The notes under the pieces: generated by a model
Databases searched by the model: none
What the model was told of the DNA's origin: nothing
Seen by the model: the letters and a program-made list of their open reading frames with translations, nothing else
Origin: Haliotis cracherodii
Lineage: Eukaryota
Direction: 5' to 3'
DNA: 64,000 bases
NCBI RefSeq assembly: GCF_022045235.1
Contig: NW_027266267.1
Coordinates: forward strand, 32,860,001 to 32,924,000
Position numbers and translations under genes: made by a program
In this document: in pieces, positions 13,533 to 48,022 of the stretch
How positions within the stretch are numbered: position 1 is the first letter of the stretch
How the letters are laid out: the number at the start of each line of letters is the position of its first letter

Positions 13533-13710
13533 TACAGAAAACTACGTTTATAACGAACACGCTTATAACGAACTGACAGATATAACGAACTAATTTTTGG
13601 TCCCGGCAATTTGCTGTATATATGCTGTATATATGCATATAACGAACTGCGTTTATAACGAGCTACAATTACTGGTCCCTTTAAGTTCGCTATAACAGTA
13701 GTTTACTGTA
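13533..13710. mobile_element. Tc1/pogo-type MITE
   Basis: TA-CAG(a/t)AAACTAC...TATAACGAAC terminal inverted repeats. Same family as 49688-49865. Confidence 0.75.
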
Positions 13711-14189: not shown

Positions 14190-14540
14190 CTGAGGTTGAA
14201 ATCATTACTTGTGTGACTATGGTGGCAACAGCTCAAGTGTGTAGTGTTTGCTTATATAGATTGTAGATGTGTTGAGGCACTTTGATCAAAACCAGCTCAC
14301 GAGCACAAGATGTAACACACTGATCTCATGCTCCTACTAGTTATGTGAATGTAGTTTCTCACCTCCTTGTCTGTGTTATAGTGCTGGTCACTTTAATGTC
14401 AGTGTTAGCATACGGAAGATTTTCATAAGGAACACGAAACTCATTGTTATCAATTTCCTTTCCACGTGGTGACAAGACATATTTATCCTGATTGATTATG
14501 AATAAGATAGCTTACATGTTTAAACATATCATATGCAGCA
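14190..14540 (-). promoter_or_regulatory. Copy D putative exon 1 and proximal promoter
   Basis: Donor ctcag|gtaagg at 14190, TATATAAG near 14255, and block homology with 5870-6175. Confidence 0.5.
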
Positions 14541-14904
14541 TGGAGCGCGATCTTCCATGTACCAACATCTGTCACCCAACAAGTGCAGTGGAGTGTGTGA
14601 GGCGTTCATGGTTCATTTGAGTGACTTTGCTGAAGTTGAGAAAGGGGATTATAATTTTCCTTACAGTTAACACAACATTTGGCGGAACGTTTGTCTTACA
14701 AGAGTTACGTCCCCGCAAATTATCTCCCTTTTATCGTAAGTGTCACGCACGTACACAAACTACTGGGTACCTATTTACAACAGTTCCACATTGACAAGGC
14801 AAAATAATGACAGATGGTTTTTAAGTCGCAATAACAAGGGTTGGTGAAACGTCCCTGCGTGGTAGGTAGAGAGAATTTGCGTTTCAAGGATTTACATTTG
14901 TAGT

Positions 14905-15250
14905 GTCCGGGTTCTTCCCTCGGGAGGTCTTGGTACTTCGTTCTCCAGGAGGTCCTGGTACTGCTTTCCCCAGGAGGTCCTGGTACTACTTCCCTCTGGA
15001 GGTCATGGAACTTCTTCTCTCTAGAGGTCCTGGACCTTCTTCCTTCTGGAGGTCCTAGTACTTCTTCCCTCTGGAGGTCCTGGAACTTCTTCTCTCGGGA
15101 GGTCTTGGTACTTCGTTCTCCAGGAGGTCCTTGTACTTCTTCTCTCTGGAGGTCTTGGTACTTCTTCCCTCTCGAGGTCTCGGTACTTCTTCCCTCTCGA
15201 GGCCCCCGGTACTTCTTCTCTCTCGAGGCCTTGGTACTTCTTCCCTCTGG
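14905..15250. repeat. 25-bp minisatellite, about 13 copies
   Basis: Unit ggaggtcctggtacttcttccctct. Confidence 0.9.
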
Positions 15251-15409
15251 TTGTTTGTTTGTTTGTTTATTTCTTGTTTAACGCCACCCTTAGCAAGATT
15301 CCAGCCTTATGACGGCGGTCTGTAGGTACTGGTACTTTTTCCCTCTGGAGGTCTTGGTGCGTCTTGGATCTGAAAATCCTAGTTCTTCTTCTTCTTCTTC
15401 TTTGGCCGG

Positions 15410-15595
15410 ACCCCTGCCTCACAGGACCATATGACACAGTTGAACCAACCAACTCAACTCGAAAGGGAGCACGGGAATCACGCACGCACGAATACGGTGT
15501 TAGCGTTGGGCCTCTCAACGTGCGTGATTCCCGTGCACCCTTTCGAGTTGAGTTGATTGGTTCAACTGTGTCATATGGCCCGGTGACGCAGGGGT
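15410..15595. repeat. Fold-back inverted repeat (about 78-bp arms, about 30-bp spacer), probable MITE
   Basis: ccatatgacacagttgaaccaa.caactcaactcgaaaggg.gcacgggaatcacgcacg and its reverse complement. Confidence 0.85.
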
Positions 15596-17806
15596 AGCAT
15601 TACGCAGATGGCTGTTTCAATGAATGGTCGTTCCACCCGTGACGAACAGGTCTGGTTGTTGATGAAATATAGTGATAGCTAAATAGACAGATTTTTGATT
15701 CATGCACCGATTGTCTTTAAATGTAATATCCAGTTATGTATGACTGTTTAATAATCTCATACCAACTTTGACTGGAGTAGGTCCGATAGTTTTTCAGATA
15801 TTGTAGTAAACGTCGGTACCTTAAATTACCTTCCAGACTATAACTGTCGTTCGGACTACCCCGTGTTAAATATTTCGAGGTTGCACGATAAGAAAACACA
15901 TTCCATGTGTCACTTTCATGATCTGGTAAGCGACGCCCTGATTGTTTGGATGAAAGGTCGTTCCCGTAATGGGATATCCTCAGATCTTTGTTCAGCGATA
16001 GGGAGAACTAAGATCTTATTTTAATGTAAAAGAAACTGTCTGTCTGCCTTGAACTCATTCGTCTGCAGTACAGCCCCTTTGTTTTCGCAGCCCCTCAGAA
16101 GCTCTACTTTGTGGGAAATAACGCCAATGACAACTCCAAAGATTCCAATTCTGACATGATAGTACCATATTCATAACGACCCAGTAATGCATCGCACAAG
16201 GCACGATGGTAATATATATATAATAATCTATAATGTCAATAGCTGACTGATACCATGCAAACGATACCATATCATTTAATGTATAAATAGCGTTAAGAGT
16301 TGATCATGTATCAAAAGTATACACATAAATCATTAATATCCCATATACAGCATGTTTGTAGAGACGCATACATAACCATACCAGACTATCAGAGTGACCT
16401 CCATTAGCGCCATATCAAATTTTCAAGCCAACTGCTGCAGGAAGGTAAAGGATCTCAAGCGAGTAAGCTGTCGCTTCAAGTTGAGTAAGTCAGTATTGTT
16501 TTACGCCGTGTTTGCAATATTTAACAAACGTCATTGCAGGGGACATCAGAAATGAGCTTCGCAAGGTGTGCATGTTGGGACCAGAGCCTGGCGCCTCGGA
16601 GCAGCAAACATTTGGTCAGCCAGAATCTGAAAGCATAAACAGAAACTCCATGGTGTGGGACGGCAAACTGGAGGGTTGCATCTTGGTGGGGTGCATCATC
16701 ACATTGCTGGCTACATTCCACTTGTCTTTACTGGTGCTCTTTGCCAAGGATTACACGGGGCAAAACTGGTGGCAAGGAGGAGGGTAAACACAAGGGCCAG
16801 TAGTTGTATTGCTATAGCACACAACTAACTATGAGAGGTCAACAAGTGTTACATTGCTTTCTGTCAATGTAATGCATGTAAAACGACAGAAAAGTTCAAA
16901 ATAACCCGCAGAACATCAGACAGAGGTGCATCATCATCAAGGTTGCATTATTCAATAAGTATTTATATCAACAATCGAGAGCTAAATTTTAATGACGCAA
17001 CTCGGAATACATAAAACTAGCAATACCTATACACAAATATACTATTAATTACATTAATTAAAATGATATTATAATTGAATTGCTTAGATCGATGCTCATG
17101 ATATCAATCACTCACTTGTTTGGTCTAAACAGAACGCCGCATATTGCTTGAATATTGCCGAGTGCGGCGTTAAACAACAAACACAAAAACAAACAAAACA
17201 TGAAAGTGGAGTGCAGCATTAAACAACAAACAAACAAATTAACGAATACCGGTATCATGTTTTGACTACATACTCACTTGTCCTGATACTTCCTGAAAAT
17301 ATTTAATGTATGTATGTAATTAAATGTATGTAAGATGGTACATTTGGAACTAGAACGAGGCACATGTTTAATTAATCAGATTCCTGGAAAAAAAGGTTCA
17401 GGATTAACAATTTGATGTAAACTGTATGAATATGTTTGAAGGATGATTGTTTCAATGAATGCAGGATTGAAGAAACAAAATATATATTAGATACCAACAG
17501 TTTGTATATCATCATATAAACAACAGCTTGGACATTGATGACAATGGCATCAAACATAGATTTACAAATCTTCAGTAATAATTATTTATAGTCAGTGAAT
17601 ATACGTGTTTTACGGCACTTTGAACAGTGTTTCAGTTATGTCACGGCGTGTCAGCTTAATGTTGGAGGATATCCTGCTTTGGTCGGATATGGTGATGACA
17701 AACCATTGATCATATTCAGGGATTCGAACCCGTGATCATGGCACTCTGGGAAACAAAGACCTGGTCAGACATCAATGCACTGAAACCAAGAACAAGACAT
17801 ACTCAC

Positions 17807-18100
17807 TCTCCACCGTCAGCTGACACACGGGGACGGGGACGGCTCCAACTACAGCCGCATCCAGGACCTTCCATGTGCCAGCATCTACCACCCCCACGCT
17901 GTGTATGGTCAGTGTAATGTGAGTAGCATTTATGTCCGCACTGTATCCACGCAGAGGGCTGCAGCTGGGGTTGCATGTGACGACATACCGGCCATCATTA
18001 GGTCGTTCCCACACAAAGCCAGTGTAGCTGCTTCTGTCGGTCTGAATTGTGTATGGCGTATTAAGCAGTGCCACTCCTCCAACACACGGGGAATCAGCCG
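17807..18100 (-). CDS. Copy C orphan Ig domain 1 exon (5' end in N gap)
   Basis: Open frame ADSPCVGG...VCQLTVE|gtgagt, very similar to copy D. No leader exon upstream and no Ig2 downstream, so function is uncertain. Confidence 0.55.
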
Positions 18101-19022
18101 NNNNNNNNNNNNNNNNNNNNNNNNNNNNNNNNNNNNNNNNNNNNNNNNNNNNNNNNNNNNNNNNNNNNNNNNNNNNNNNNNNNNNNNNNNNNNNNNNNNN
18201 NNNNNNNNNNNNNNNNNNNNNNNNNNNNNNNNNNNNNNNNNNNNNNNNNNNNNNNNNNNNNNNNNNNNNNNNNNNNNNNNNNNNNNNNNNNNNNNNNNNN
18301 NNNNNNNNNNNNNNNNNNNNNNNNNNNNNNNNNNNNNNNNNNNNNNNNNNNNNNNNNNNNNNNNNNNNNNNNNNNNNNNNNNNNNNNNNTGGTGTTGTAA
18401 AACTCAAACCAAGGAATAACACATTAATGCAACAAGCGTACATTTTCTTCACACCCTGTACCCATGTGTGAAATAATAAAATGTCATATTATTGATATAT
18501 TCTATTGGGAATCCGTCGTTGGCTTGAGTATGTGTTAAGTACAACGTTAATCTCGGTAAACACTCATTACGCCGGAAACCTAATCGCCATGTTTGCTTGA
18601 TGCTGCAGATATAGCCAAACGCGACTGAATATAAATACAACCCATAAACGTAGAAAATTGAACGTCAACATTTGCAACCTAATCAAAATTAGACGTTCGA
18701 TAAAGGCGAGCCAAAACCTCATCAGCGACATCAATCAGAGTCATATATCAACAAACACGTAATATTTTGTATTAACTTTGATAATTTAACATTGCATTTA
18801 CTTTTGAAAACATTTTGTTCAACCCTGTGTTATTTTAGCGAGACGACAAAATGGCGCCTAAAGCAACCGAGGAAGGAGTTCGTGTACACAACTTACCAAC
18901 ACGGCAGGGGGCGTCATGTGTCCTGCATATTTACCTACTTCCCCATTGTACCCACCATGTATTAAGTAGCATTGAGTAAGTTACATCACATTCCAGTGAA
19001 CCCTCCATTCAGCATTATCTAC

Positions 19023-19072
19023 CTACTGAATGTTTCGCGAATCACGTTGTAGTGACAGCCTCGTTTTGACCC
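19023..19072 (-). pseudogene. Copy B remnant of FN3 exon 3' end (GQNEAVTTT*FAKHSV|gtagat)
   Basis: Matches 42693-42742. The Cys codon has become TGA and the rest of the exon is absent. Confidence 0.7.
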
Positions 19073-19284
19073 GTCCCCAACAACCCTTCAAGCCCCTTCC
19101 TAATCACATAAAACTACCAGGCTGTCTACTCATTTGTCGCATGTTTAATTGTGACATTTGATCTACCCAAATCGTATTTCACCTTCTCAAAGCAAGAAAC
19201 TGTAAGTCTAGGGCATTGAATATTTTGCAGTCTTTACCAGTTTCAATCTTCATAAAAATCGACTAACACATTCGTCCAACTCAC

Positions 19285-19578
19285 CAAGCCTCCTCAAACC
19301 GTCACAGTTTACATCCCAGCTGCTGACGTCACACGTATAGCTGACTGTGACGTCACCGAGTCGGGCTGGTGTCACACTGAAGGTGCTGGAAGTGATAACA
19401 TCGCTGACGTCAGTGACGTTGTGCTTCATCAACATCTCCGTGACGTTGCCAGTAGTGAGATAAAAGCCAGCTTCCTGTGAACAGTAGTACCCTCTGATGT
19501 CTACTATCAGTGTCAGGTTTGTATTGGGCTGGAGGGCTGTTGGGTCTGCATCACTGCTGACGTTGCACCGGGGGAGTT
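19285..19578 (-). CDS. Copy B Ig-like domain 2 exon
   Basis: 294 nt, phase 1-1, intact splice sites, open frame. Confidence 0.8.
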
Positions 19579-20282
19579 CTGTGAATACAAGATGAGATAA
19601 CTGCTGATGTAGACTAATGTAGAATGTAGGAAAATAGTTATTTACTTGTTCGGGTATGGGCAAGAGCCCAGATTTAACCCTGTGTTTATACACGGAGCAA
19701 GTGGACCTGTAATGAGAAACCAGTGAAGTGACATCAAAATCATAGTGTTGAATGTCTGGTGTGTTATTAGGCAGGATGATAACCCCTTCACATCATGATA
19801 ACTGATTCAGATGTCAGGTAGTGCCATAGTGACCAATTCGTGATAACTCCCCAAACTATTTGTTGTTAGAAATAATGTGACTATAACACAAACCCTCCTC
19901 CAATTCTTCTCTCGACGTGATGTGCAAACTGTGTCTAGTACAGTGTTTAAACAATTTATGATTTGGAGAGATAAAAACAAAGAATATTGTCTAAAGAAAT
20001 ACCGACTTGGCAACCCATAAGCCTATTGCATTATCGTGGGTTCGAATGCAAGGTCCGCCCTGATTATATGTCCTGGTTTGTCAGCATTATACCCGTGTTT
20101 GTGGGTTTCATCAAGTTGTACAGTGTCAGTGCTAAACGCCATGAAAGTAACTCCTCAAATACTGTTCAAAGCAGCGTCAAACAAAGCTCCCTCACTCACT
20201 TCGAACATGTGTTTGTCTGCTGCCAAGGACGACATTATTCCTCCGTCGTTTTATTTTGTAAGCAAGGACCTGAACTACTCAC

Positions 20283-20585
20283 TTGCCACTCTCAGCTGAC
20301 ACACGTCGACAGGGATGGCTCCAACTACATTTCCATCCACGATCTTCCATGTACCAGCATCTGCCACCCCAACACTGTGTATAGTGAGTGTAGAGTGTGT
20401 GTCGTTCACCGTTGCTCTGTATCCAGCCACAGGGCTACAACTGGGGTTGCAGGTGACGACATACCGGCCATCAGTGGGTCGTACCCATGAAAAGCCAGTG
20501 TAGTTGCTTCTGTCCCCCTGAATAGTGTATTCTGTACCGAGCGCCGCCACCCCTGCCACACACGGGGGATCCGCCGAATCAACAC
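20283..20585 (-). CDS. Copy B Ig domain 1 exon
   Basis: 303 nt, intact splice sites, 9 aa differences from copy A by my count. Confidence 0.82.
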
Positions 20586-20823
20586 CTGCAATGAGTGAAG
20601 TTTTATGCGCTACCAGCAATGTTCCAACTTTATCACAAGCGGGTAACACAAGGGATTGACTTCACAAACTGTACATAAGGTAATTCGAGACTGTGTGACT
20701 GGCGAGCGCTTTAAACACAACGCCACTCTTCCCTCACATTTACGATACTGAAAATGGTGTTGTAAAAGTAAAACCAATGGATAACATATGAATCTGATAA
20801 TGCAAGAATCATTAAAACCTCAC

Positions 20824-20884
20824 TGTAGTGAATGCAGGCTATCCAACCAAGGGTGATAGTATAGAGGTGGCCGTGCTTCCACAT
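20824..20884 (-). CDS. Copy B signal-peptide exon (MWKHGHLYTITLGWIACIHY)
   Basis: 61 nt with intact ATG and donor. Paralog of 47962-48022. Confidence 0.8.
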
Positions 20885-33405: not shown

Positions 33406-33981
33406 ATATTCCGAAAGCTGTGCGTGGTAATGCGTACTTCGTGATTTCATGTACACTTCCAAATGAGTGAGTGTTGAACATCTACACAGTCATCGTGTAT
33501 ATTCCCGATACATCCACCGACTCCTGTCAACTCATGGACATAACGGAAATCATCTGAGTCCCCAATGACTCCGTAACATATTCATCAGATAACTATACCA
33601 AACCTGAAACAGTCCTGTAGGAACTACAAGCATATGAATCTGGTAGTACACTTCAGCGAGAAACTCTATCACTTCTCAAGCGCTCTCCCAGGTGTAGCAG
33701 AACATCAGTTTAACACTGCCGAGCACTATTTCAGTTATATCAGGGTGTGACAGCTTGAAGTTGGAGCAAAGCCTGAAGTGAGGCAGGTGTCAGACGCCGG
33801 CATATTTATAGATTTAGGGGTGTAAATGAATTGTAAGCTAAACATTATAATCGTAACTGTGAACAAAGCCCTAAAGTTCTCGGTAGTGTAGTTTCGGGAC
33901 TTGTTGTCAAATCATTTCTAAAAGAAAAAGATATCCATATAGGCAAACTGCGCAAGCCCGAATAGCGTGCTGCACGAGAAT

Positions 33982-34106
33982 TTAGTGTGACACGTTCTGA
34001 TACTGCTTCAGCTGTTCGTATGTGTTGGAAGTCTCAATCTCAGCGAAGGATCGAGGCTGTAGGTTATCATACTGGTTCTGTGGTGATGGAACTTCGTACG
34101 CACCTT
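33982..34106 (-). CDS. Copy A terminal exon with four Tyr motifs (EGAYEVPSPQNQYDNLQPRSFAEIETSNTYEQLKQYQNVSH*)
   Basis: Polypyrimidine acceptor cttcttcctttcag|, phase 1 matches the upstream exons, TAA stop. The composition is typical of a receptor tail. Confidence 0.75.
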
Positions 34107-34419
34107 CTGAAAGGAAGAAGGATATGCATACGTTCCGATAAGAAACACCAACTATCACGCATATAAACATATACATGTATGTACTTGTATGCATAGACTG
34201 TCTCGCCTTTACGTAGACAGTCTGATCGAGTGATATACAATAGCTATATAGCCCTAGAAATGAAAGTCGGTATACTACTTCCCCCTTAAAATGATAAACT
34301 ATGATTATATAAAATCCCCATGCAGTAAACATCAAGGAGTTACTCGATTATGCACCACTTTTCTTGGCCGGAATCATTACCTGACAAGTTGGTGAACTGG
34401 TGACTTAATGTACACACTG

Positions 34420-37400
34420 TCATGGTTTTCCCTTCAGTTTTTGTCTTTGTATGTTTGCACAGAACGTTCTGCGAGTCTATTTGATCTGAGTCGGCAAGTT
34501 GAACTCAATCTCAACTCACTTAGTGAAAATGCTTACGCTCCTGACTTGTAAATGAACCTCCGTTGTTCAAGACAATAGACACTGGTAATCTCTGTGTAGG
34601 GAACCTCCGTTGTTCAAGACAATAGACACTGGTAATCTCTGTGTAGGGAACCTCCGTTGTTCAAGACAATAGACACTGGTAATCTCTGTGTAGGGAACCT
34701 CCGTTGTTCAAGACAATAGACACTGGTAATCTCTGTGTAGGGAACCTCCGTTGTTCAAGACAATAGACACTGGTAATCTCTGTGTAGGGAACCTCCGTTG
34801 TTCAAGACAATAGACACTGGTAATCTCTGTGTAGGGAACCTCCGTTGTTCAAGACAATAGACACTGGTAATCTCTGTGTAGGGAACCTCCGTTGTTCAAG
34901 ACAATAGACACTGGTAATCTCTGTGTAGGGAACCTCCGTTGTTCAAGACAATAGACACTGGTAATCTCTGTGTAGGAAACCTCCGTTGTTCAAGACAATA
35001 GACACTGGTAATCTCTGTGTAGGGAACCTCCGTTGTTCAAGACAATAGACACTGGTAATCTCTGTGTAGGGAACCTCCGTTGTTCAAGACAATAGACATT
35101 GGTAATCTCTGCGTAGGGAACCTCCGTTGTTCAAGACAATAGACACTGGTAATCTCTGTGTAGGGAACCTCCGTTGTTCAAGACAATAGACATTGGTAAT
35201 CTCTGTGTAGGGAACCTCCGTTGTTCAAGACAATAGACACTTGTAATCTCTGTGTAGGGAACCTCCGTTGTTCAAGACAATAGACACTGGTAATCTCTGT
35301 GTAGGGAACCTCCGTTGTTCAAGACAATAGACACTGGTAATCTCTGTGTAGGGAACCTCCGTTGTTCAAGACAATAGACACTGGTAATCTCTGTGTAGGG
35401 AACCTCCGTTGTTCAAGACAATAGACACTGGTAATCTCTGTGTAGGGAACCTCCGTTGTTCAAGACAATAGACACTGGTAATCTCTGTGTAGGGAACCTC
35501 CGTTGTTCAAGACAATAGACATTGGTAATCTCTGTGTAGGGAACGTCCGTTGTTCAAGACAATAGACACTGGTAATCTCTGCGTAGGGAACCTCCGTTGT
35601 TCAAGACAATAGACACTTGTAATCTCTGTGTAGGGAACCTCCGTTGTTCAAGACAATAGACACTGGTAATCTCTGTGTAGGGAACCTCCGTTGTTCAAGA
35701 CAATAGACACTGGTAATCTCTGTGTAGGGAACCTCCGTTGTTCAAGACAATAGACACTTGTAATCTCTGTGTAGGGAACCTCCGTTGTTCAAGACAATAG
35801 ACACTGGTAATCTCTGCGTAGGGAACCTCCGTTGTTCAAGACAATAGACACTTGTAATCTCTGTGTAGGGAACCTCCGTTGTTCAAGACAATAGACACTG
35901 GTAATCTCTGTGTAGGGAACCTCCGTTGTTCAAGACAATAGACATTGGTAATCTCTGTGAAGGGAACCTCCGTTGTTCAAGACAATAGACACTGGTAATC
36001 TCTGTGTAGGAAACCTCCGTTGTTCAAGACAATAGACACTGGTAATCTCTGTGTAGGGAACCTCCGTTGTTCAAGACAATAGACACTGGTAATCTCTGTG
36101 TAGGGAACCTCCGTTGTTCAAGACAATAGACACTGGTAATCTCTGTGTAGGGAACGTCCGTTGTTCCAGACAATAGACACTGGTAATCTCTGTGTAGGGA
36201 ACCTCCGTTGTTCAAGACAATAGACACTGGTAATTTCTGTGTAGGGAACCTCCGTTGTTCAAGACAATAGACACTGGTAATCTCTGTGTAGCGAACGTCC
36301 GTTGTTCAAGACAATAGACACTGGTAATCTCTGTGTAGGGAACCTCCGTTGTTCAAGACAATAGACACTGGTAATCTCTGTGTAGGGAACCTCCGTTGTT
36401 CAAGACAATAGACACTGGTAATCTCTGTGTAGGGAACCTCCGTTGTTCAAGACAATAGACATTGGTAATCTCTGTGTAGGGAACCTCCGTTGTTCAAGAC
36501 AATAGACACTGGTAATCTCTGTGTAGGGAACCTCCGTTGTTCAAGACAATAGACACTGGTAATCTCTGTGTAGGGAACCTCCGTTGTTCAAGACAATAGA
36601 CACTGGTAATCTCTGTGTAGGGAACCTCCGTTGTTCAAGACAATAGACACTGGTAATCTCTGTGTAGGGAACCTCCGTTGTTCAAGACAATAGACACTGG
36701 TAATCTCTGTGTAGGGAACCTCCGTTGTTCAAGACAATAGACACTGGTAATCTCTGTGTAGGGAACCTCCGTTGTTCAAGACAATAGACACTGGTAATCT
36801 CTGTGTAGGGAACCTCCGTTGTTCAAGACAATAGACACTGGTAATCTCTGTGTAGGGAACCTCCGTTGTTCAAGACAATAGACATTGGTAATCTCTGTGT
36901 AGGGAACCTCCGTTGTTCAAGACAATAGACACTTGTAATCTCTGTGTAGGGAACCTCCGTTGTTCAAGACAATAGACACTGGTAATCTCTGTGTAGGGAA
37001 CCTCCGTTGTTCAAGACAATAGACACTGGTAATCTCTGTGTAGGGAACCTCCGTTGTTCAAGACAATAGACACTGGTAATCTCTGTGTAGGAAACCTCCG
37101 TTGTTCAAGACAATAGACACTGGTAATCTCTGTGTAGGGAACCTCCGTTGTTCAAGACAATAGACACTGGTAATCTCTGTGTAGGGAACCTCCGTTGTTC
37201 AAGACAATAGACATTGGTAATCTCTGCGTAGGGAACCTCCGTTGTTCAAGACAATAGACACTGGTAATCTCTGTGTAGGGAACCTCCGTTGTTCAAGACA
37301 ATAGACATTGGTAATCTCTGTGTAGGGAACCTCCGTTGTTCAAGACAATAGACACTTGTAATCTCTGTGTAGGGAACCTCCGTTGTTCAAGACAATAGAC

Positions 37401-39800
37401 ACTGGTAATCTCTGTGTAGGGAACCTCCGTTGTTCAAGACAATAGACACTGGTAATCTCTGTGTAGGGAACCTCCGTTGTTCAAGACAATAGACACTGGT
37501 AATCTCTGTGTAGGGAACCTCCGTTGTTCAAGACAATAGACACTGGTAATCTCTGTGTAGGGAACCTCCGTTGTTCAAGACAATAGACACTGGTAATCTC
37601 TGTGTAGGGAACCTCCGTTGTTCAAGACAATAGACATTGGTAATCTCTGTGTAGGGAACGTCCGTTGTTCAAGACAATAGACACTGGTAATCTCTGCGTA
37701 GGGAACCTCCGTTGTTCAAGACAATAGACACTTGTAATCTCTGTGTAGGGAACCTCCGTTGTTCAAGACAATAGACACTGGTAATCTCTGCGTAGGGAAC
37801 CTCCGTTGTTCAAGACAATAGACACTTGTAATCTCTGTGTAGGGAACCTCCGTTGTTCAAGACAATAGACACTGGTAATCTCTGTGTAGGGAACCTCCGT
37901 TGTTCAAGACAATAGACATTGGTAATCTCTGTGAAGGGAACCTCCGTTGTTCAAGACAATAGACACTGGTAATCTCTGTGTAGGAAACCTCCGTTGTTCA
38001 AGACAATAGACACTGGTAATCTCTGTGTAGGGAACCTCCGTTGTTCAAGACAATAGACACTGGTAATCTCTGTGTAGGGAACCTCCGTTGTTCAAGACAA
38101 TAGACACTGGTAATCTCTGTGTAGGGAACGTCCGTTGTTCCAGACAATAGACACTGGTAATCTCTGTGTAGGGAACCTCCGTTGTTCAAGACAATAGACA
38201 CTGGTAATTTCTGTGTAGGGAACCTCCGTTGTTCAAGACAATAGACACTGGTAATCTCTGTGTAGCGAACGTCCGTTGTTCAAGACAATAGACACTGGTA
38301 ATCTCTGTGTAGGGAACCTCCGTTGTTCAAGACAATAGACACTGGTAATCTCTGTGTAGGGAACCTCCGTTGTTCAAGACAATAGACACTGGTAATCTCT
38401 GTGTAGGGAACCTCCGTTGTTCAAGACAATAGACATTGGTAATCTCTGTGTAGGGAACCTCCGTTGTTCAAGACAATAGACACTGGTAATCTCTGTGTAG
38501 GGAACCTCCGTTGTTCAAGACAATAGACACTGCTAATCTCTGTGTAGGGAACCTCCGTTGTTCAAGACAATAGACACTGGTAATCTCTGTGTAGGGAACC
38601 TCCGTTGTTCAAGACAATAGACACTGGTAATCTCTGTGTAGGGAACCTCCGTTGTTCAAGACAATAGACACTGGTAATCTCTGTGTAGGGAACCTCCGTT
38701 GTTCAAGACAATAGACACTGGTAATCTCTGTGTAGGGAACCTCCGTTGTTCAAGACAATAGACACTGGTAATCTCTGTGTAGGGAACCTCCGTTGTTCAA
38801 GACAATAGACATTGGTAATCTCTGTGTAGGGAACCTCCGTTGTTCAAGACAATAGACACTGGTAATCTCTGTGTAGGGAACCTCCGTTGTTCAAGACAAT
38901 AGACACTGGTAATCTCTGCGTAGGGAACCTCCGTTGTTCAAGACAATAGACACTGGTAATCTCTGTGTAGGGAACCTCCGTTGTTCAAGACAATAGACAT
39001 TGGTAATCTCTGTGTAGGGAACCTCCGTTGTTCAAGACAATAGACACTGGTAATCTCTGTGTAGGGAACCTCCGTTGTTCAAGACAATAGACACTGGTAA
39101 TCTCTGTGTAGGGAACCTCCGTTGTTCAAGACAATAGACACTGGTAATCTCTGTGTAGGGAATGTCCGTGGCGACTTGTGACTGGTGGCGATGTAGATGA
39201 TGTCATGTGGACGTCCATCAACAACGGGAATGTGTCAACAAAAATCAGGAACATGTTTTCAGGAATGGTCCCGGAGGGTCTTTATGTATGTGCTTCCAGG
39301 GACCCCTTGGGTATTCAAATGGATGCATCGGCACAGCTGGTGTTGCTTAGGCATTGTAAATTACATGTTACACTGTTGAACTGACACTTCAACAACTTCC
39401 GCCGAGCATCTTCAGTTTGATCATGCCTGGCTGTATGACATGAAGTATTTCAAGTTCACAAGATCCTCCCTTCGGGGGAATCATTGGTCAGGATCCCAAC
39501 AGTACGATGCCTACATGAGTGATCAGCTCATCAGCTCTTTCTGATGAATGGCTGTAATGCTGGCTCAGTTGACGTTGTCCGAACATTTATGAATAAATTT
39601 ATTTTTGAAGTTCAATGGATTTCCAATGATTTGCTTGGTTTATTTACTGATCAGATGACCCGTTCATTTTTCAACCAACTTCAAAAAGTGACGTTTATAA
39701 AGTGCTACTTTTCATGGGGAATCTCCGAATGGAACCATTCTCTATTCCCTGCAATGCTTACCATGGTCGTGAGGATCGGCAATGTCGGACAATAAATTAA
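34420..39800 (-). mobile_element. Degenerate Gypsy/Ty3 pol (integrase) relic split by the 47-bp array
   Basis: DELITHVGIVLLG, LHVIQPGMIKLKML, PMHPFEYPRGPWKHIH.D..GPF and FLIFVD upstream of the array. FTSQERKHF and SNRLAERSVQTYK downstream. Confidence 0.8.
34555..39162. repeat. 47-bp minisatellite, about 98 copies, highly homogeneous
   Basis: Unit gaacctccgttgttcaagacaatagacactggtaatctctgtgtagg. Confidence 0.98.
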
Positions 39801-40255
39801 CATTTCTTTTTCACTCAAGATTTAATTAAACACTTGTTTGCATATTCACGTTACCCTCTCGATGCCAATACATACATCCCTGAATTTCTCATACATTATA
39901 GAATCAAATGATAAATGGTCTTTGTCACAAATACAAACTTGTCTAGATGAACTCAAGCAACTATATTAGATGTGAAAACTGAACTTGCACTTGTTTGAAA
40001 TGTAAACAAAGCAGAATTCAAATATTTCACTGTGTATCATTTTCTCCTATTTTGAGAGATACAGTGGCTCTATACTTTTAGAATATGCCTGGGAAGAATA
40101 TTGTACGCAAGAATTAGAAAATGGATACATTACAAAGATTTGGTACATTCAACAGTTTCCGTCCTGTGCGACAGCATGGCTGGCGCAAAATCTCACACAA
40201 CGTTTTTTTATCGGCATTTTGTACTATTTCTCTTGGTTACAATGGTTTTGTGTAC

Positions 40256-40300
40256 CTGACTTGTTGGGTGTGAATGTTCCAGATCCCCCCATTTCCTCTA
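40256..40300 (-). CDS. Copy A cytoplasmic exon (VEEMGGSGTFTPNKS)
   Basis: 45 nt, tctctttcag| and |gtacac. Symmetric phase 1-1 and open, so it could be skipped without a frameshift. Confidence 0.55.
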
Positions 40301-41486
40301 CTGAAAGAGACTGGTGTCACGGTCCTGTTTCTTTATAATAATTGAGTGCTTTCCTGACTGTTATAATTTTGGCAGTGCTCAGTTCTATGCCTTGTGCAGT
40401 GTCAAGAGCTTTCTTATAATTCAGTCAACAGTCAACAGTCAACATTGAATGTGTTCGTCCACTCCTCCACAAACGAGCCTATATCTCAATCTTCCAAACT
40501 ACGGCCATATCTGGCCATGTAAGCAACACATTCAGATACTCGCCGACCTGACTGGCGGAAGCACGCGTAACATTTGAAACGCTTTATTATGAATGATGTC
40601 TTTCGATTGTGGTGAGTTTTCTTTAGGTACACTAGTTCAATGAATGACTTGGTTGGGAGTAGGAGAAATGAGATTACGAAGTCCGTAAGCCTGGGTTCAA
40701 CGACTATAAGCAGACAATCGCTCCGCATATGCAGTCCAAGATTGAAGGTTTCGGGTCAAACTTGCTTACGTTTCCAAATATCACCATATTCCTGCTCTGA
40801 AGTTATTATCTTCGTCGCCAATTGGTGCTTTTAAACTGAAATACTTGACTTATAATAGTCATTGCATCAACCTGTGGGCATCATGCTTCAGTTTCATTTC
40901 CTGCCGCCAAGTGACCATCCTTAGTCTCCATGCATACTAAACTCATAGCATGCATACTAAACCCATAGCATATTCTTGTGGCTTTGCAATTTTGTCCACT
41001 ATCCTAAGATGGGGCAGTGTAGTTTATTGTTACTTTGGTGTGCTCCAGTTACTACGTTTCTTTTTTAATCCCAATCCGCCAAAAAAGAAGACTTCACTCT
41101 CAGCTCTTTGTATCTTTGGGACCTACATCCCTACTTAGGCACTATTCGCCTCTCATTTGTTGGTCTATTTTCCCACTTGGATTTCCTGGAGTTATGTCCC
41201 TTTAGTCTCTACCAGTCGCAAGGGACACTTTAAATTGGAGGTAAACAAACTGCCATGCCATACAGATACCAACATGCTTTGGTCAGGAAGCGGTCGTTGA
41301 CTTCCCGAAAGCGACCATTCATGTTCTGTGTGATCCTCGATAGCTATAGCTCTAGACATGCAAGATGGTACATCATTCTTCACATAAGCAGATTAAATCA
41401 AGGGTCCTGGGCATGTCAGTGAACATGTCCACCGTTAGACAAACTCATTGCCCTAGTCTTTCAGGAACTAGTTACAGAAGCTCTAC

Positions 41487-41554
41487 CTTCGGTTTGGTTG
41501 TTGGCGGAACTGGTCCTTTCTTGTGATGTCTGGGAGATCTGTGGATTGCTTTTT
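41487..41554 (-). CDS. Copy A cytoplasmic exon (KSNPQISQTSQERTSSANNQTE)
   Basis: 68 nt, tcttttttcag| and |gtagag. Phase 2 to 1, open frame. Confidence 0.65.
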
Positions 41555-41872
41555 CTGAAAAAAGACGTGATGTGTAATGCAACTAGTTTCTATAACACTC
41601 AACATTTGATATGGATAACCAGATGTTTCACTGCAATTCCATATAAATTACTATATTCACATGAATTAAGATTTTAAGAATGAGAAGAAATCAACTCATT
41701 TTGTTTGAGGATGGTACACAGTAAAATGGGGTGGAATATTAGCAACGCTCGATGACATGCTATCAACAAAGTCATATATAGCCTGTCCACTCAATCCTCA
41801 TAAGTCAGTTCCTTTAACAAGTATGAGATGACCTATTAGTCCCCTAAATCCCTGTTGGGCGCATCAACACAC

Positions 41873-41897
41873 CTATCTTTTTCAGCACTGTCTGTTC
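41873..41897 (-). CDS. Copy A cytoplasmic micro-exon (GTDSAEKDR)
   Basis: 25 nt, ttttctgtttcag| and |gtgtgt. Phase 1 to 2, which matches the phase of the next exon. Confidence 0.65.
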
Positions 41898-41970
41898 CTG
41901 AAACAGAAAATTTAAAAAAGTCAAACTGCATGTCTTTTAATTTTGACATAAAAAAACATATTTTAAAATA

Positions 41971-42030
41971 CATTAGCCTGATGAAGGAGTAAGCATATAC
42001 TCTGAAACGTTGTGTTCCTCATAATAAAGA
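41971..42030 (+). ncRNA. Degenerate type I hammerhead ribozyme motif (Penelope-like element end)
   Basis: CTGATGA, stem II ggagta/tactct, GAAAC..GTT, then AATAAA. Stem I is only partly paired. Confidence 0.45.
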
Positions 42031-42200
42031 AGTAGATATCCATATATTCTCTTCCTTAAGAAATTAAAAGTCGTGCAATTTATGCGATGTGAAAGAAAAT
42101 GTATGTGTGTTGGTCTAATCAATCAATTTTTGAAGTCTTAAATCTTTCTCAATTACGAACTTTGGTGATAATCTTTTTCTAACACATATTAACATCTCAC

Positions 42201-42329
42201 CGGAATAAATAGCTGTTAATTTCCTTCTGAAGACGAACGCAACACCCAGACACAGAGCCAGAGCAATAAGCGTGACTCCAATCCCTATGACAACGCCAAC
42301 ACCCATTGAAGACTCTGAAGATTCTGATC
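42201..42329 (-). CDS. Copy A transmembrane exon (GSESSESSMGVGVVIGIGVTLIALALCLGVAFVFRRKLTAIYS)
   Basis: 129 nt, phase 1-1, ttccag| and |gtgaga. About 25 hydrophobic residues followed by an RRK stop-transfer signal. Confidence 0.88.
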
Positions 42330-42692
42330 CTGGAACGACAGTACCACATTCATTATGCTGGTCCTAGCTTGAGATATAAAAATGAATGTAACTTCACTCA
42401 TTACCCATAACAAGTTACAATTTTAACAGTTCACCCCTATACTGCACCAGAGTATCAATACAGTCAATGGCCATTGCTGTAGGTTGACATTGCCCGGCAA
42501 TTTGAGCCTGACAACTCCATCATGTTAGTTTGTTCTTTTTGCCAGCAATTGAGTGTTGGTGACCAATTTTAAATGGGATCACCACAGGATCAAGAAAAGA
42601 TATTTACACTATCATTATAATATTGCAATAGAAATACACTACTATTCTACAATTACATAAATGGACATCCATTGTACAAGTTTATTATCTAC

Positions 42693-42998
42693 CTTCTGAA
42701 CGTCTCGTGAAGCACGTGGTATTGACAGCCTCGCTTTGGCCTAAATACCCGCCATCAACAACCAGCCGGAAGTGGTATAGGTTGTCTTCCTGAAGCTCTG
42801 TTAATGTAGTGGTGTATATTGTTTCATACTTCTCAGTTGGTATCGTGATGTTTCTGTCATCTTTGTCAGCCTTGTCATTGAGGCGATAGTTGAGAACAAA
42901 CGCGAGATTGTAAAGATCATTTCGTGGGTATACCCACTGTATGTCGAGACTTGATTGTGTGTGTCTTGTGCAGTAGAACTCAGTAGGACCCACAAGGT
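42693..42998 (-). CDS. Copy A fibronectin type III exon
   Basis: 306 nt, phase 1-1, tacag| and |gtagat. FN3 signature: P..., SLDIQW, FVLNY, LTELQEDNLYHFRL. Confidence 0.85.
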
Positions 42999-43299
42999 CT
43001 GTAACAGAAACTCTTTAATGTGTACCTGTATTGTATAGCACAAATACATGCAGCAAAGATGTGCAGATTAATTACCAAATTCCTATACTTGGATTGAAAG
43101 ATCCCAGCAATGATGCGTTTTCAGTGAATTTCCAAGTATCTTTCTGATATTTCGAATGCTCCCGAAAACTTTCTAGCTTCAAATCATCTTCGAGTATCCT
43201 GTGTATTAATATATCCACTAAATATCTATGTAATAAATACCATGAACCATTCGCTACAATGGCTTCGTTGCGAACCCATAGAATGGTACGACGCACAAA

Positions 43300-43990
43300 A
43301 TAGACGTCCTAATGTATATGAGGAAGGGGAAGGGGGCTAAAACTCCATTGAAGGAATTGGTTGTTAATTATTACAATGCTGGAGTGCCTGGAGAGAGACT
43401 TGTACAAAGGCGCATTGTCCCGGTGTCACCTTTAGGTAGTTTTCCACGACGAATGGCCTTCATAGTCTCATTCCTTTGTGGTTAATGGTCTGGGCTTTCG
43501 CTAAGCAGTCCACCAGCTGGATCCCAGAAAACCTTAACCATCACACAGTCAGCTGATGGAACCTACTTTATGCCTTTTTTGGAGAATGCTACGTTGCATG
43601 TTTCCTCTTGTTATGAGTGTTCTTTAATCTCTGGCTGATAGTGGTGAATCCAAGAGTCGTCCATAGTTACAATTCGCTCAACAAACTGAGCTGGGTGTGC
43701 TTGAAAGACATAAATTATTATGAACCTGGAGTGTTCTTTATCAGGAGTCTTAACCCCGAGCTTGCCACGTTCATTCGTCAGAATGTTCTCAACTCTCTCA
43801 TGAGGGATGCCTATTCTCTTCTCAATGTGGTGTGTGGTGAGTTGTTGATTATACATAATTATATTTTGTATTTTATCCTATTTTTCCTCAGTGGTGGCAG
43901 TTGAAGGTCTTCCTGATCTCAGGTAATCATCGATGCTTTCTCTTCCTCTCTTTGACTCCGCTGCCCACCAGAGTAGTAATGGCAGGAACA
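43300..43990 (-). mobile_element. Mariner transposase relic
   Basis: KRGRESIDD..RSGRPST, FVERIVTMDDSWIHHYQPE and VMVKVFWD motifs. Confidence 0.8.
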
Positions 43991-44498
43991 TTATGCCCCG
44001 CAGTTGAAGCGATGTCAATGGTTGGGGGTACTTGATGGCATCGCCGTTGTCAATTTTGTACATTTTCAACAACAGAGAATACCTAGTCACTTTTATGCCT
44101 GCAGAATTATGCTGTCTGGTTGTGTACTTAGTGCAAATACGTGGAAACCCTTGTACTGCACCCCTTCATACTTAGGCTTAGAGTTTTTCGACGTGTGTGC
44201 ATGCGTGCGGGTGTGTGGCAGCCTGTACTTGTCCATGTAGATTCGGTTTTAAAGTGATAGTAGTTTAACATTGATACCTCACCCAGATACCCTGACCACG
44301 AAACGACCAGTCCTTGTTTCATCCAATCAATACAGAGCGTGGGGCAGGTGTGTTTGTTTGTTGTAACGCTGAAAGGCAGTTATCGACACATAACAAATGA
44401 AGCTATAATACACTCGATAACCGAGAATGGTTCATAAAAAGAGGTCTTCAAGCACTGAATATTGTGTCAATACCACGACACATACCTTCCAAACTCAC

Positions 44499-44798
44499 CC
44501 ATTACTAGGCTCCTCACGCCATCACAGTTCAGAACCCATCTGTTGACGTCACACGTATAACTGACTGTGACGTCACCGAGTCGGGCTGGTGTCACACTGA
44601 AGGTGCTGGAAGTGATAACATCGCTGACGTCAGTGACGTTGTTCTTCATCAACATCTCCGTGACGTTGCCAGTAGTAAGATAAAAGCCAGCTTCCTGTGA
44701 ACAGTAGTACTCTCTGATGTCTACTGTCAGTGTCAGGTTTGTATTTGGTTGGAGGGCTGTTGGGTCTGCATCACTGCTGACGTTGCACTGGGGGAGTT
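44499..44798 (-). CDS. Copy A Ig-like domain 2 exon (KLPQCNVSS...YYCS...YTCD...NCDG)
   Basis: 300 nt, phase 1-1, cacag| and |gtgagt. Beta-strand pattern with 4 Cys and several N-glycosylation sequons, conserved in B and D. Confidence 0.8.
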
Positions 44799-45474
44799 CT
44801 GTGAATACAACATGAGATAACTGCTGATGTAGACTGATGTAGAATGTAGGAAAATAGTTATTCACTTGTTCGGGTATGGGCAAGAGCCCAGATTTAACCC
44901 TGTGTTTAAACTCATAGCAAGTGGACCTGTAATGAGAAACCAGTGAAGTGACATCAAAATCATAGTGTTCAATGTATAATGTGTTTACATTATGATAAAT
45001 GATTCAGATGTCAGGTAGTGCCATAGTGACCAATTCGTGAAAACTTCCCAACTATTTATCGTTAGAAATAATGTGACTATAACACAAACCCTCATCCAAT
45101 TCATCTCTCGAAGTGATGTGCAAACTGTATCTTGTACAGAGCCAAAACAATTTATGATTTCACATGGAAAAAATAACAACAAAGAATATTGTCTAAAGGA
45201 ATACCTTATGATAATAGTTGACGCGGCTCACGAGACGACTTGGCAACCCAAAAGCCTATCATCGTGGGTTCGAATGCAAGGTTCGCCCTAATTATATGTC
45301 TTGTTATGTGTGTATCATACCAGTGTTTGTGGGTTTCATTAAGTTCTACAGTGTAAGTGCTAAACGCCATGAAAGTAAATGTACAATTGCTGTTCAAAGC
45401 AGCGTCATACAAAGCTCACTCATTCACTCCGAACATGTGTCCGTTTTTTGTAAGCAAGGACCTGAACTACTCAC

Positions 45475-45509
45475 TCGCCACCGTCAGCTGACACACGTCG
45501 ACAGGGATG
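45475..45509 (-). pseudogene. 3' stub of Ig1 exon (IPVDVCQLTVA|gtgag)
   Basis: Matches the 3' end of Ig1 and is joined directly to a copy of the pre-FN3 intron. Confidence 0.75.
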
Positions 45510-45809
45510 TGCTCTTTAATGTGCACCTGTATTGTATAGCACAAATACATGCAGCAAATTAAAGATGTGCAGATTAATTACCCAATTTCTTAACTTGGAT
45601 TAAAAGATCCCAGCAATGTTGCGTTTTCAGTGAATTTCCAAGTATCTTTCTGACATTTCGAATGCCCCCGAAAACTTTCTAGCTTCAAATCATCTTCGAG
45701 TATCCTGTGTATTACATCTCCACTAACTATCTGTGTAATAAATACCATGGAACCATTCGCTCCCATACCTTCGTTGTGAACCCATAGAATGGTACGACGC
45801 ACAAAATAG

Positions 45810-46460
45810 ACGCCCTAATTCATATGAGGAAGGGGAAGGGGGCTGACAACCTATGTTAGACTCCATTGAAGGAATTGGTTGTTAATTATACAATGCTGGA
45901 GTGTCTGGAGAGAAACTTGTACAAAGGTACATTGTCCCGGTGTCACCTTTAGGTAGTTTTCCATGACGAATGGCCTTCATAGACTCATTAGTTTGTGGTT
46001 AATGGTCTGGGCTTTCGCGGTCTGCTGATGGAACCTACTTTATGCCTTTTTTGGAGAATGCTACGTTGCATGTTTCCTCTTGTTATGAGTGTTCTTTAAT
46101 CTCTGGCTGATAGTGGTGAATCCAAGAGTCGTCCATAGTTACAATTCGCTCAACAAACTGAGCTGGGTGTGCTTGAAAGACATAAATTATGATGAACCTG
46201 GAGTGTTCTTTATCAGGAGTCTTAAGCCCCAGCATGCCACGTTCATTCGTCAGAATGTTCTCAACTGTCTCATGAGAGATGCCTACTCTTTTCTCAATGT
46301 GGCGTGTGGTGAGTTGTGGTCATACATACTTATATTATGTATTTTATCGACATTTTCCTTAGTGGTGGCAGTTGAAGGTCTTCCTGACCTTGGATAATCA
46401 TCGATGCTTTCTCTTCCTCTCTTTGACTCCGCTGCCCACCAGAGTAGTAATGGCAGGATC
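45810..46460 (-). mobile_element. Duplicate of the mariner relic (within segmental duplication)
   Basis: Near-identical to 43300-43990 with the same flanks. Confidence 0.8.
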
Positions 46461-46894
46461 ATCATGCCCCACAGTTGAAGCGATGTCAATGGTTGGGGGT
46501 ACTTGATGGCATCGCTGTAGTCAATTTTGTACATTTTCAACAACAGAGAATACCTAGTCACTTTAATGCCTACAGAATTATGCTGCCTGGTTGTGTATTT
46601 GGTTCAAATGCATGGAAACCACTGTACTGCAATCCATGCAAACTAATAACTGTACCCCCTTCATACTGACCACGAGACGACCAGTCCTTGTTTCATCCCC
46701 TTAATACAGAGCTCGAGGCAGGTTTGTTTGTTTGTTGTATGTCTGAAAGGTAGGTATCGACACATAACAAATGAAGCTATAATACACTCGATAACAGAGG
46801 ATGGTTCAAAACAAACAAAAAGGTCTTCAAGCACTGAATATTGTGTCATATGAGACGACACACACACACACACACACATACATTCAAAACTCAC

Positions 46895-46947
46895 CCATTA
46901 CTAGGCTCCTCACGCCATCACAGTTCAGATCCCATCTGTTGACGTCA
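46895..46947 (-). pseudogene. 3' stub of Ig2 exon (from internal duplication in copy A)
   Basis: Near-identical to 44499-44551 including the donor. The 5' part is deleted. Confidence 0.75.
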
Positions 46948-47421
46948 AACCAAAACCCCTAACTATTCATTGTTAGAAATAATGTGACTTTAACACAAAC
47001 CCTCATCCAATTCATCTCTCGCAGTGATGAGCAAACTATATCTGGTACAGAGCCAAAACAATTTATGATTTTACATGGAAAAAAATAACAACAATGAATA
47101 TTGTCTAAAGGAATACCTAATGATAATAGTTGACGCGGCTCACGAGACGACTTGGCAACCCAAAAGCCTATCATCGTGGGTTCGAATGCAAGGTTCGCCC
47201 TAATTATATGTCTAGTTATGTGTGTATCATACCAGTGTTTGTGGGTTTCATTAAGTTCTACAGTGTCAGTGCTAAACGCCATGAAAGTAAGTCCTCAAAT
47301 ACTGTTCAAAGCAGCGTCAAACAAAGCTCCCTCACTCACTTCGAACATGTGCTTGTCTGCTGCCAAGAACGACATTATTCCTCCGTCGTTTTTTTTGTCA
47401 GCAAGGACCTGAAATACTCAC

Positions 47422-47724
47422 TTGCCACCCTCAGCTGACACACGTCGACAGGGATGGTTCCGATTACATTTGCATCCACGATCTTCCATGTACCAGCATC
47501 CAGCATCCCCACACTGTGAATAGTGAGTGTAGAGTGTGTGTCGTTCACCGTTGCTCTGTATCCAGCCACAGGGCTACAACTGGGGATACATGTGACGACA
47601 TACCGGCCATCAGTGGGTCGTACCCATATAAAGCCAGTGTAGCTGCTTCTGTCCCCATGAATAGTGTATTCTGTACCGAGCGCCGCCACCCCTGCCACAC
47701 ACGGGGGATCTGCCGAATCAACAC
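47422..47724 (-). CDS. Copy A Ig domain 1 exon (SVDSADPPC...GFIW...STLTIHSV...DAGTW...VCQLRVA)
   Basis: 303 nt, phase 1-1, ttgcag| acceptor and |gtgagt donor. It has the Ig C-strand Trp, E-strand LTI and a D-x-G-x-aromatic motif. Confidence 0.85.
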
Positions 47725-47961
47725 CTGCAATGAGTGAAGTTTTATGCGCTACCAGCAATATTCCAACTTTATCACAAGCGGGTAACACAAGTAATTGACA
47801 TCACAAACTGTACATATGGTAAATCGAAACTGCATGACTGGCGAGCGCTTTAAACACAACGCCACTCTTCCCACACATTATGATACCGAAAATGGTGTTG
47901 TAAAAGTAAAACCAATGGATAACATATGAAGCTGATAACGCAAGAAGCAGTAAAACCTCAC

Positions 47962-48022
47962 TGTAGTGAATGCATGCTATCCAACCAAGGGTGATAGTAT
48001 ATAGTCGGCCAGGCTTCCACAT
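47962..48022 (-). CDS. Copy A signal-peptide exon (MWKPGRLYTITLGWIACIHY)
   Basis: ATG at 48022, 61 nt, donor A|gtgagg, acceptor ccag just upstream. The same 61-nt exon is in copies B, D and F. Confidence 0.85.

What the first reader, a model, noticed from the sequence alone, without database searches (positions are those of the whole stretch)
33982..48022. Complete 453-aa receptor recoverable only by splicing nine exons, including a 25-nt micro-exon
Every junction is GT/AG, and the phases close exactly (61+303+300+306+129+25+68+45+125 = 1362 nt) with no stop. The 1-to-2 and 2-to-1 pair of small cytoplasmic exons is unlikely to fit by chance. The last intron (6.1 kb) is mostly a satellite inside a Gypsy relic, so automated annotation could truncate the gene.
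Basis: seen in the sequence. Interest (0 to 1): 0.7.

Follow-up and report, generated by a model that had tools for sequence, protein, structure and literature searches.

The report
Abalone eight-exon immunoglobulin receptor gene
Spliced transcripts show an abalone gene of eight coding exons (not nine) for a 438-residue membrane protein with two predicted immunoglobulin domains, a fibronectin-like domain and a four-tyrosine tail, likely an immune signalling receptor of a large unnamed abalone family, which the public gene model merges with its neighbour.

Summary
The gene is real, but the nine-exon, 453-aa model is wrong by one exon. The arithmetic reproduces, and transcript contigs show introns 1-6 at the stated sites, with the 25-nt micro-exon in 4 of 4 runs. 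The 45-nt exon (40300-40256) is absent: exon 7 joins the last exon directly in 4 of 4 runs. It lies in a decayed retroelement interval. The correct model has eight coding exons, 1317 nt, 438 aa and a 7380-nt last intron. The product has a leader, a predicted V-set Ig lacking the core disulfide, a second Ig-fold domain with no Pfam match, FN3, one membrane helix and a tail with four tyrosine motifs. None is a strict ITIM or ITAM. The public model (P0001) drops exons 4-8 and fuses exons 1-3 to the downstream paralog. The gene belongs to a Haliotis family with at least 49 + 126 domain exons on two contigs, one of them the Ig-rich contig. The architecture is known in molluscs; this family was not found in eight literature searches. 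Function is inferred, not shown.

The parts
47962..48022 (-). Coding exon 1 (61 nt), leader peptide, phase 1
   Evidence: intron 1 joint in X3. Hydrophobicity is weak, and SignalP was not available, so the signal role is inferred
47422..47724 (-). Exon 2 (303 nt), 'IgA' domain: predicted V-set fold without the B-F cysteines
   Evidence: pLDDT 89.6; Z 11.8, rmsd 2.1, 92 aligned to a TCR V domain; DIP/Dpr and nectin-like domains tied
44499..44798 (-). Exon 3 (300 nt), 'IgB' domain: predicted seven-strand Ig fold, no Pfam match
   Evidence: pLDDT 95.4; Z 8.8, rmsd 3.2, 94 aligned to ICAM-2; PirB/LILR, VCAM-1, KIR and unrelated sandwiches tied
42693..42998 (-). Exon 4 (306 nt), fibronectin type III-like domain
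   Evidence: Pfam fn3 E 3.7e-05, 24.3 bits, just under the cut-off of 25; joints
42201..42329 (-). Exon 5 (129 nt), membrane helix followed by basic residues
   Evidence: hydropathy peak 2.7 at residues 336-354; joints
41873..41897 (-). Exon 6, 25-nt micro-exon, phase 1 to 2
   Evidence: present in 4 of 4 runs; same size in the neighbouring paralog
41487..41554 (-). Exon 7 (68 nt), phase 2 to 1; spliced directly to the last exon
40256..40300 (-).
   Evidence: no room for it in the contigs of 4 of 4 runs; lies between repeat-matching pieces 40816-40523 and 40244-39600, itself unmatched
39177..40816 (-). Decayed LTR-retroelement pieces (gag-like start, integrase at 39508-39177) with a second dispersed repeat inside
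34554..39169 (.). 47-bp satellite, 98 copies, inside the integrase relic
   Evidence: no other locus found
33982..34106 (-). Last coding exon (true exon 8, 125 nt): tyrosine motifs YEVP, YDNL, YEQL, YQNV and stop
   Evidence: covered in 4 of 4 runs, depth falls at 34108
33420..33981 (-). 3' UTR, at least 560 nt
   Evidence: continuous contigs in X2, X3, X6 up to the edge of the stretch laid; first AATAAA at 33069
149..20884 (-). Downstream paralog cluster: leaders at 20884, 13380, 211; IgA at 20585, 18100, 12912; IgB at 19581, 11993; broken IgB and FN3 at 10270-9025; continues left of the window

Best explanation
This is a spliced eight-coding-exon abalone gene for a 438-residue single-pass protein with two predicted Ig domains, an FN3-like domain and four tail tyrosines, which likely works as an immune-surveillance receptor. 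The inferred mechanism: the outer V-type domain binds a cell-surface or microbial ligand, receptors cluster, a Src-family kinase phosphorylates the tail tyrosines, and SH2 adaptors or phosphatases dock and tune the cell's response. Shown: exon structure, splicing, membership of a large clustered family, conservation of the tyrosine cassette. Predicted: both Ig folds. Inferred: signal peptide, topology, ligand binding, phosphorylation, immune role. The gene model itself I put at about 0.95; the confidence below is for the mechanism.
For: Splice joints in contigs, with X1 contigs showing 0 differences from the window over 446, 296 and 204 nt. Folds. All four tyrosines recur in order in three distant paralogs at C4:27.08-27.13 Mb that have a different ectodomain. 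One of them reads through with a 43 + 50 nt exon pair of the same phases and the same 93-nt total (picked by eye, no transcript). The listed last-exon variants in X2, X3, X6 change no tyrosine (23 rows not shown). Paralogous exons show dN below dS in 12 of 12 pairs. At least 49 IgA and 126 IgB exon matches lie on C4 and C18 only. 115 of the 150 scored PF13895 hits (958 candidates) are on C4 (hand count), as on the Ig-rich, copy-variable abalone chromosome of PMC12627906. An oyster Ig-FN3-TM receptor recruits SHIP2 in haemocytes (PMC11841013, abstract).
Against: No tail motif meets the strict ITIM, ITSM or ITAM pattern. No tissue, ligand or partner data. The nearest folds include neural adhesion proteins (DIP/Dpr, nectin-like, NCAM2) tied with immune ones. 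Only 2 of 15 membrane-bearing relatives carry a multi-tyrosine tail, and 1 of 15 has a charged membrane residue, so a classic activating/inhibitory pairing is not evident. The few listed ectodomain differences give no measure of positive selection. The runs are only guessed to be RNA, and no DNA control for the joints was given.
Confidence: 0.55

Rival explanations
1. A cell-adhesion or cell-identity molecule of neurons or epithelia (DIP/Dpr, nectin or Dscam-like), whose YxxP motif recruits cytoskeletal adaptors rather than immune phosphatases.
For: DIP, Dpr, nectin-like and NCAM2 domains are tied among the top folds for exon 2. CEACAM1, contactin and Dscam are the best, weak sequence hits among solved structures (E 0.0008-0.03). 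YxxP is the only motif kept in every tail seen. The link of YxxP to Nck/Crk is recalled.
Against: Family size, broken copies, module shuffling and restriction of named homologs to Haliotis fit fast-turning immune receptor clusters better than conserved wiring genes (inference).
Confidence: 0.25
2. A self/non-self or gamete identity marker that binds its own or a paralog's V domain, like Hydractinia Alr proteins.
For: Same layout (V, Ig, FN3-like, TM, tyrosine tail), loss of the core cysteines, small frame-shifting tail exon and exon shuffling as described for Alr (10.1101/2022.03.04.482883, passages). One run holds a version whose tail ends before all four motifs.
Against: No allorecognition response is known to me in abalone (recalled). 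Exon 2 keeps the core tryptophan, and FN3 has two cysteines, not three. Allelic hypervariability was not measured.
Confidence: 0.12
3. Exons 1-3 are mainly the first part of one long read-through gene (the 1022-aa public model), and exons 4-8 are an alternative early ending.
For: P0001 and the H. rufescens model P0002 both start with this kind of head followed by more Ig pairs. Contigs in X2, X3, X6 show IgB-to-IgA and IgA-to-IgA joins.
Against: Exon 3 joins exon 4 in 3 of 4 runs, with no differences in X1. The paralog has its own leader and an upstream region 89% identical over 1.7 kb. In X3 and X6 the back-joined contigs, matched by depth, carry differences near 47680 and so probably come from other IgA copies (inference).
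Confidence: 0.08

Closest known systems
Oyster CgNCAM1 (PMC11841013; abstract and section 21 read)
   Same: Leader, Ig domains, one FN3, one membrane helix, tyrosine-motif tail, in a mollusc
   Different: Three Ig domains placed with NCAM and two ITIMs there; here two divergent domains, no strict ITIM, and a large lineage-restricted family
Hydractinia Alr family (bioRxiv 10.1101/2022.03.04.482883; passages read)
   Same: V-set without the core disulfide, further Ig, FN3-like, TM, tyrosine tails, clustered genes, exon shuffling, 22-bp tail exon
   Different: Core tryptophan kept here, other cysteine pattern, no sequence link found, no known allorecognition role
Ig-FN3-TM genes in non-syntenic regions of pearl oyster (PMC9646362, passages) and the Ig-rich abalone chromosome (PMC12627906; abstract, passages, results 3.4-3.7, supplement rows)
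   Same: Clustered, copy-variable Ig genes with varying domain number on a rearranged chromosome
   Different: Those were counted by Pfam Ig models. IgB has no Pfam match and IgA only E 0.076, so this family would largely escape such counts (inference). Orthology of C4 to that chromosome is inferred from enrichment, not aligned
Vertebrate LILR/KIR/CEACAM clusters (family traits recalled)
   Same: Tandem Ig receptors with variable domain number, similar heads and divergent tails
   Different: No strict ITIM in this gene, almost no charged membrane residues, FN3 present, no homology shown
Biomphalaria PTC1/PTC2 clusters (PMC10875847, passages)
   Same: Gastropod clusters of single-pass proteins with Ig and FN3 domains
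   Different: No sequence link tested; polymorphism and resistance phenotype not measured here

Membership tests
Immunoglobulin superfamily, V-set (exon 2) | V-type beta-sandwich fold | tested here: met
   AlphaFold pLDDT 89.6; Z 11.8, rmsd 2.1, 92 aligned to a TCR V domain; 328 chains at Z >= 8
Immunoglobulin superfamily, V-set (exon 2) | Canonical B-F disulfide | tested here: not met
   Absent here and in 26 of 29 aligned rows; kept in L120, L121 and P0096
Immunoglobulin superfamily, V-set (exon 2) | C-strand tryptophan and D-x-G-x-aromatic motif | tested here: met
   W33 and D75 nearly invariant, G77 and W79 invariant
Immunoglobulin superfamily, C2/I type (exon 3) | Seven-strand Ig fold of cell-surface receptor type | tested here: inconclusive
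   Ig-like sandwich predicted (pLDDT 95.4), but ICAM-2 (Z 8.8, rmsd 3.2, 94 aligned) is tied with transglutaminase and SoxY domains
Fibronectin type III (exon 4) | Pfam fn3 match over the curated cut-off | tested here: inconclusive
   E 3.7e-05, 24.3 bits against 25; H. rubra relative P0005 carries PF00041
ITIM inhibitory receptors | [ILVS]xYxx[ILV] in the tail | tested here: not met
   0 matches; one match in the H. rufescens neighbour P0002
ITIM inhibitory receptors | Recruitment of SHP or SHIP | not testable with these tools
   needs phosphopeptide pull-down
ITAM activating receptors | Yxx[LI]-x6-12-Yxx[LI] | tested here: not met
   YDNL and YEQL are 13 residues apart
Hydractinia Alr family | V-set, Ig, FN3-like, TM, tail layout | tested here: met
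Hydractinia Alr family | Six invariant cysteines, three in the last Ig and three in FN3 | tested here: not met
   four in IgB, two in FN3
Hydractinia Alr family | Sequence homology to Alr proteins | tested here: inconclusive
   15 of 16 proteins looked up (14, plus P0002 and P0001's listing) are named Haliotis and one is unnamed; the other hits were not named; no Alr sequence was compared directly
Hydractinia Alr family | Allele-specific homophilic binding | not testable with these tools
   needs a cell aggregation assay
Paired-receptor clusters (LILR/KIR type) | Tandem genes with like ectodomains, variable domain number and unlike tails | tested here: met
Paired-receptor clusters (LILR/KIR type) | Activating partners with a charged membrane residue | tested here: inconclusive
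   1 of 15 membrane-bearing models has one; most of the family was not modelled

The most novel reading that the evidence does not exclude
The gene is a signalling member of an undescribed abalone receptor system: well over a hundred Pfam-invisible Ig modules on a copy-variable chromosome, shuffled onto tyrosine-bearing, tyrosine-free or truncated tails. It would form a KIR/LILR- or Alr-like self and pathogen surveillance repertoire that evolved independently in gastropods.
Probability: 0.25. Interest if true: 0.7.

Novelty: new member of a known kind. Interest (0 to 1): 0.36.

Why it matters
Directly, it corrects a gene model: the FN3-TM-tail half of this receptor was not found in the protein collection (weak evidence by the tool's own note), and the public model merges two genes. 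A 25-nt exon and a satellite-filled intron are ordinary. The wider value is that it exposes a large abalone Ig receptor family that standard domain scans miss, on a contig rich in Ig genes. If immune, these are candidates for disease-resistance variation in wild and farmed abalone and a test case for convergent paired-receptor systems in invertebrates.

Tried and rejected
Nine-exon model: rejected; a rare isoform with the 45-nt piece is not excluded, because contigs drop rare variants. No listed holder run was on record as RNA. Homodimer prediction of exon 2: no answer, score 0.00, alignment not used; not evidence either way. Pfam found nothing for IgB (8 scattered weak families over 38 members), nothing in the retroelement frames themselves (0 of 9) and nothing for four ectodomain exons of the distant paralogs. 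Foldseek gave antibody V domains at rmsd 7-8, uninformative. The Atlas returned unnamed mollusc clusters and generic Ig or FN3 clusters. A protein search with the last exon found nothing at E <= 1. The repeat finder output was swamped by the satellite. Three look-ups of earlier findings returned nothing. Gene conversion between the neighbours: dS is 0.12-0.21 for IgB and the closest IgA against 0.23-0.34 for TM and small tail exons, but on few sites, so only suggestive. Circular RNA as the source of the back-joints was considered; multi-domain paralogs explain them more simply, but it is not excluded. Eight literature searches listed no paper on this family; subscription journals are not covered, and bioRxiv supplements were not seen.

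Full report
Observation. All introns are GT-AG, the sum is 1362 nt and the frame is open for 453 aa. But phase closure does not single this model out. Dropping the 45-nt exon, or exons 6+7, or 6-8 keeps the frame. The long intron offers 56 other stop-free symmetric candidates outside the satellite, 5 with a good pyrimidine tract.

Transcript test. Four of the 23 listed runs (all guessed to be RNA, contigs only) were laid on 39300-48300 and 33420-34400. Joints fall on the predicted introns: 237 (1 of 4 runs), 2623 (3 of 4), 1500 (3 of 4), 363 (3 of 4), 303 (3 of 4), 318 (4 of 4). The micro-exon is present in all four. The same contigs, recognised by length or depth in both calls, reach the last exon with no room for 45 more bases: its first base is at record position 91 in X1, 525 in X2, 225 in X3 and 574 in X6, each exactly one after exon 7. 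The X3 loose end at 34108 matches the end of exon 7 (24 of 30) and not the 45-nt piece (9 of 30). The only listed piece over 40300-40256 is an unspliced, low-depth X3 contig (39915-40951). The gene therefore has eight coding exons, 1317 nt, 438 aa and a last intron of 7380 nt. X1 contigs show no differences from the window in exons. A rare longer isoform cannot be excluded.

Independent support for the exon plan. The downstream paralog has exons of 129, 25 and 68 nt followed by its last exon, and both public models of it, P0001 and P0002, have no equivalent of the 45-nt piece. A distant paralog at C4:27.12 Mb reads through with 43 + 50 nt exons of the same phases and the same total (chosen by eye among many chance candidates, no transcript).

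The last intron. 39508-39177 matches copies elsewhere that carry Pfam Integrase_H2C2 and rve. 40816-40523 matches the 5' part of related copies, and 40244-39600 is another dispersed repeat. The rejected exon lies between these and is itself unmatched. The 47-bp satellite starts right after the integrase match. Its unit reads, by eye, like the next stretch of the integrase in L137; tblastn did not score that piece.

The protein. Leader (weakly hydrophobic), exon 2 domain, exon 3 domain, FN3-like domain, membrane helix at about 336-354, tail of about 80 residues. Exon 2 folds as a V-set domain (pLDDT 89.6; Z 11.8, rmsd 2.1, 92 aligned) but lacks both core cysteines, which distant relatives keep. 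Exon 3 has no Pfam match, yet folds as a seven-strand Ig-like sandwich (pLDDT 95.4; best Z 8.8, tied among ICAM-2, LILR/PirB, VCAM-1, KIR and unrelated sandwiches). The last exon has YEVP, YDNL, YEQL and YQNV. None meets the strict ITIM, ITSM or ITAM pattern. The second reads YDDL in X2, X3 and X6. All four recur in three distant paralogs whose ectodomain exons are different, which points to a portable membrane-plus-tail module (inference).

Organism, family and annotation. A named Haliotis cracherodii protein, P0001 (XP_071094808.1), matches exons 1-3 letter for letter, then jumps to the paralog at 20585 and ends in that paralog's tail left of the window. No protein holding exon 4 or the last exon of this gene was found (weak evidence). 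In the genome, exon 2 has 49 matches among 89 candidates and exon 3 has 126 among 144, all on contigs C4 and C18 (lower bounds). Named full-domain relatives are all Haliotis (four species). Of 21 relatives examined, architectures run from one to nine modules, 15 have a membrane helix, 2 have a multi-tyrosine tail and 1 has a charged membrane residue (automated models, some probably incomplete). C4 is 3.8% of the genome but holds 115 of the 150 scored PF13895 hits (hand count). PMC12627906 reports 145 of 158 such domains on one rearranged, copy-variable H. gigantea chromosome (Table S24 row); C4 is probably its counterpart (inferred).

How it likely works. The outer V domain engages a ligand, the second Ig and FN3 act as a glycosylated stalk (seven extracellular sequons), clustering leads to tyrosine phosphorylation, and SH2 proteins dock. 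This follows from receptors of the same layout: oyster CgNCAM1 recruits SHIP2 (PMC11841013), and Hydractinia Alr proteins carry ITAM or ITIM tails (10.1101/2022.03.04.482883). None of these steps was shown here. An immune role is preferred (0.55) over adhesion (0.25), identity marking (0.12) or a read-through head (0.08), because of family size, turnover and location.

Novelty. Clustered (Ig)n-FN3-TM genes in non-syntenic regions are already reported in pearl oyster (PMC9646362, passages) and Ig enrichment in abalone (PMC12627906). The micro-exon is ordinary. What is new is the corrected model and the outline of a family that Pfam barely sees; eight searches of the held library listed no description of it. 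Papers seen: PMC12627906 (abstract, passages, results 3.4-3.7, supplement rows), PMC11841013 (abstract, section 21), PMC11999971, PMC10875847, PMC9646362 and the Alr preprint (passages only). Verdict: observation partly confirmed, new member of a known kind, interest 0.36.

Noticed in passing
window 34554-39169: The 47-bp satellite appears to be an amplified piece of the integrase core in which it sits (by eye, against L137); no second locus was found, though the search skips common words.
   Followed up: partly
window 42216 (run X2): A contig of depth 24 lacks 5 nt just after the membrane helix; the frame would end at residue 369, before all four tyrosine motifs. Possible non-signalling allele or paralog.
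   Followed up: partly
L024, about 9230 bases left of the window start: The neighbouring paralog has a stop before its last tyrosine motif, which is intact and a strict ITIM in H. rufescens P0002; it also lacks an intact FN3 exon.
   Followed up: partly
window 20884, 13380, 211: Three further leader exons sit in front of IgA copies inside the paralog cluster; they could be alternative starts spliced to one shared tail, or leftovers of duplication.
   Followed up: no
window 47721 to 44496 and 47721 to 47419: Back-joints in X2, X3, X6 (IgB to IgA, IgA to IgA); likely from multi-domain paralogs, circular RNA not excluded.
   Followed up: partly
window 48037-48050: A pyrimidine tract and AG lie 15 nt before the ATG, so an untranslated first exon may exist upstream.
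   Followed up: no
window 46631-45512 and 44160-43011; 47456-46958 and 45509-45047: Intronic duplications at about 88% identity, next to stray copies of the ends of exons 2 and 3 with donors (45509-45477, 46950-46895).
   Followed up: no
G000:C4:27.08-27.14 Mb (L019-L023): Tandem genes with the same membrane helix and four-tyrosine tail but other Ig-like exons with cysteines and no Pfam match.
   Followed up: partly
G000:C18:2.33-2.37 Mb: A dense array of about 20 IgA-type exon matches in 35 kb.
   Followed up: no
window 59389-62803 (+) and 31424-32987 (-): Long open frames that look like LINE-type endonuclease and reverse transcriptase (identified by eye, not scanned).
   Followed up: no
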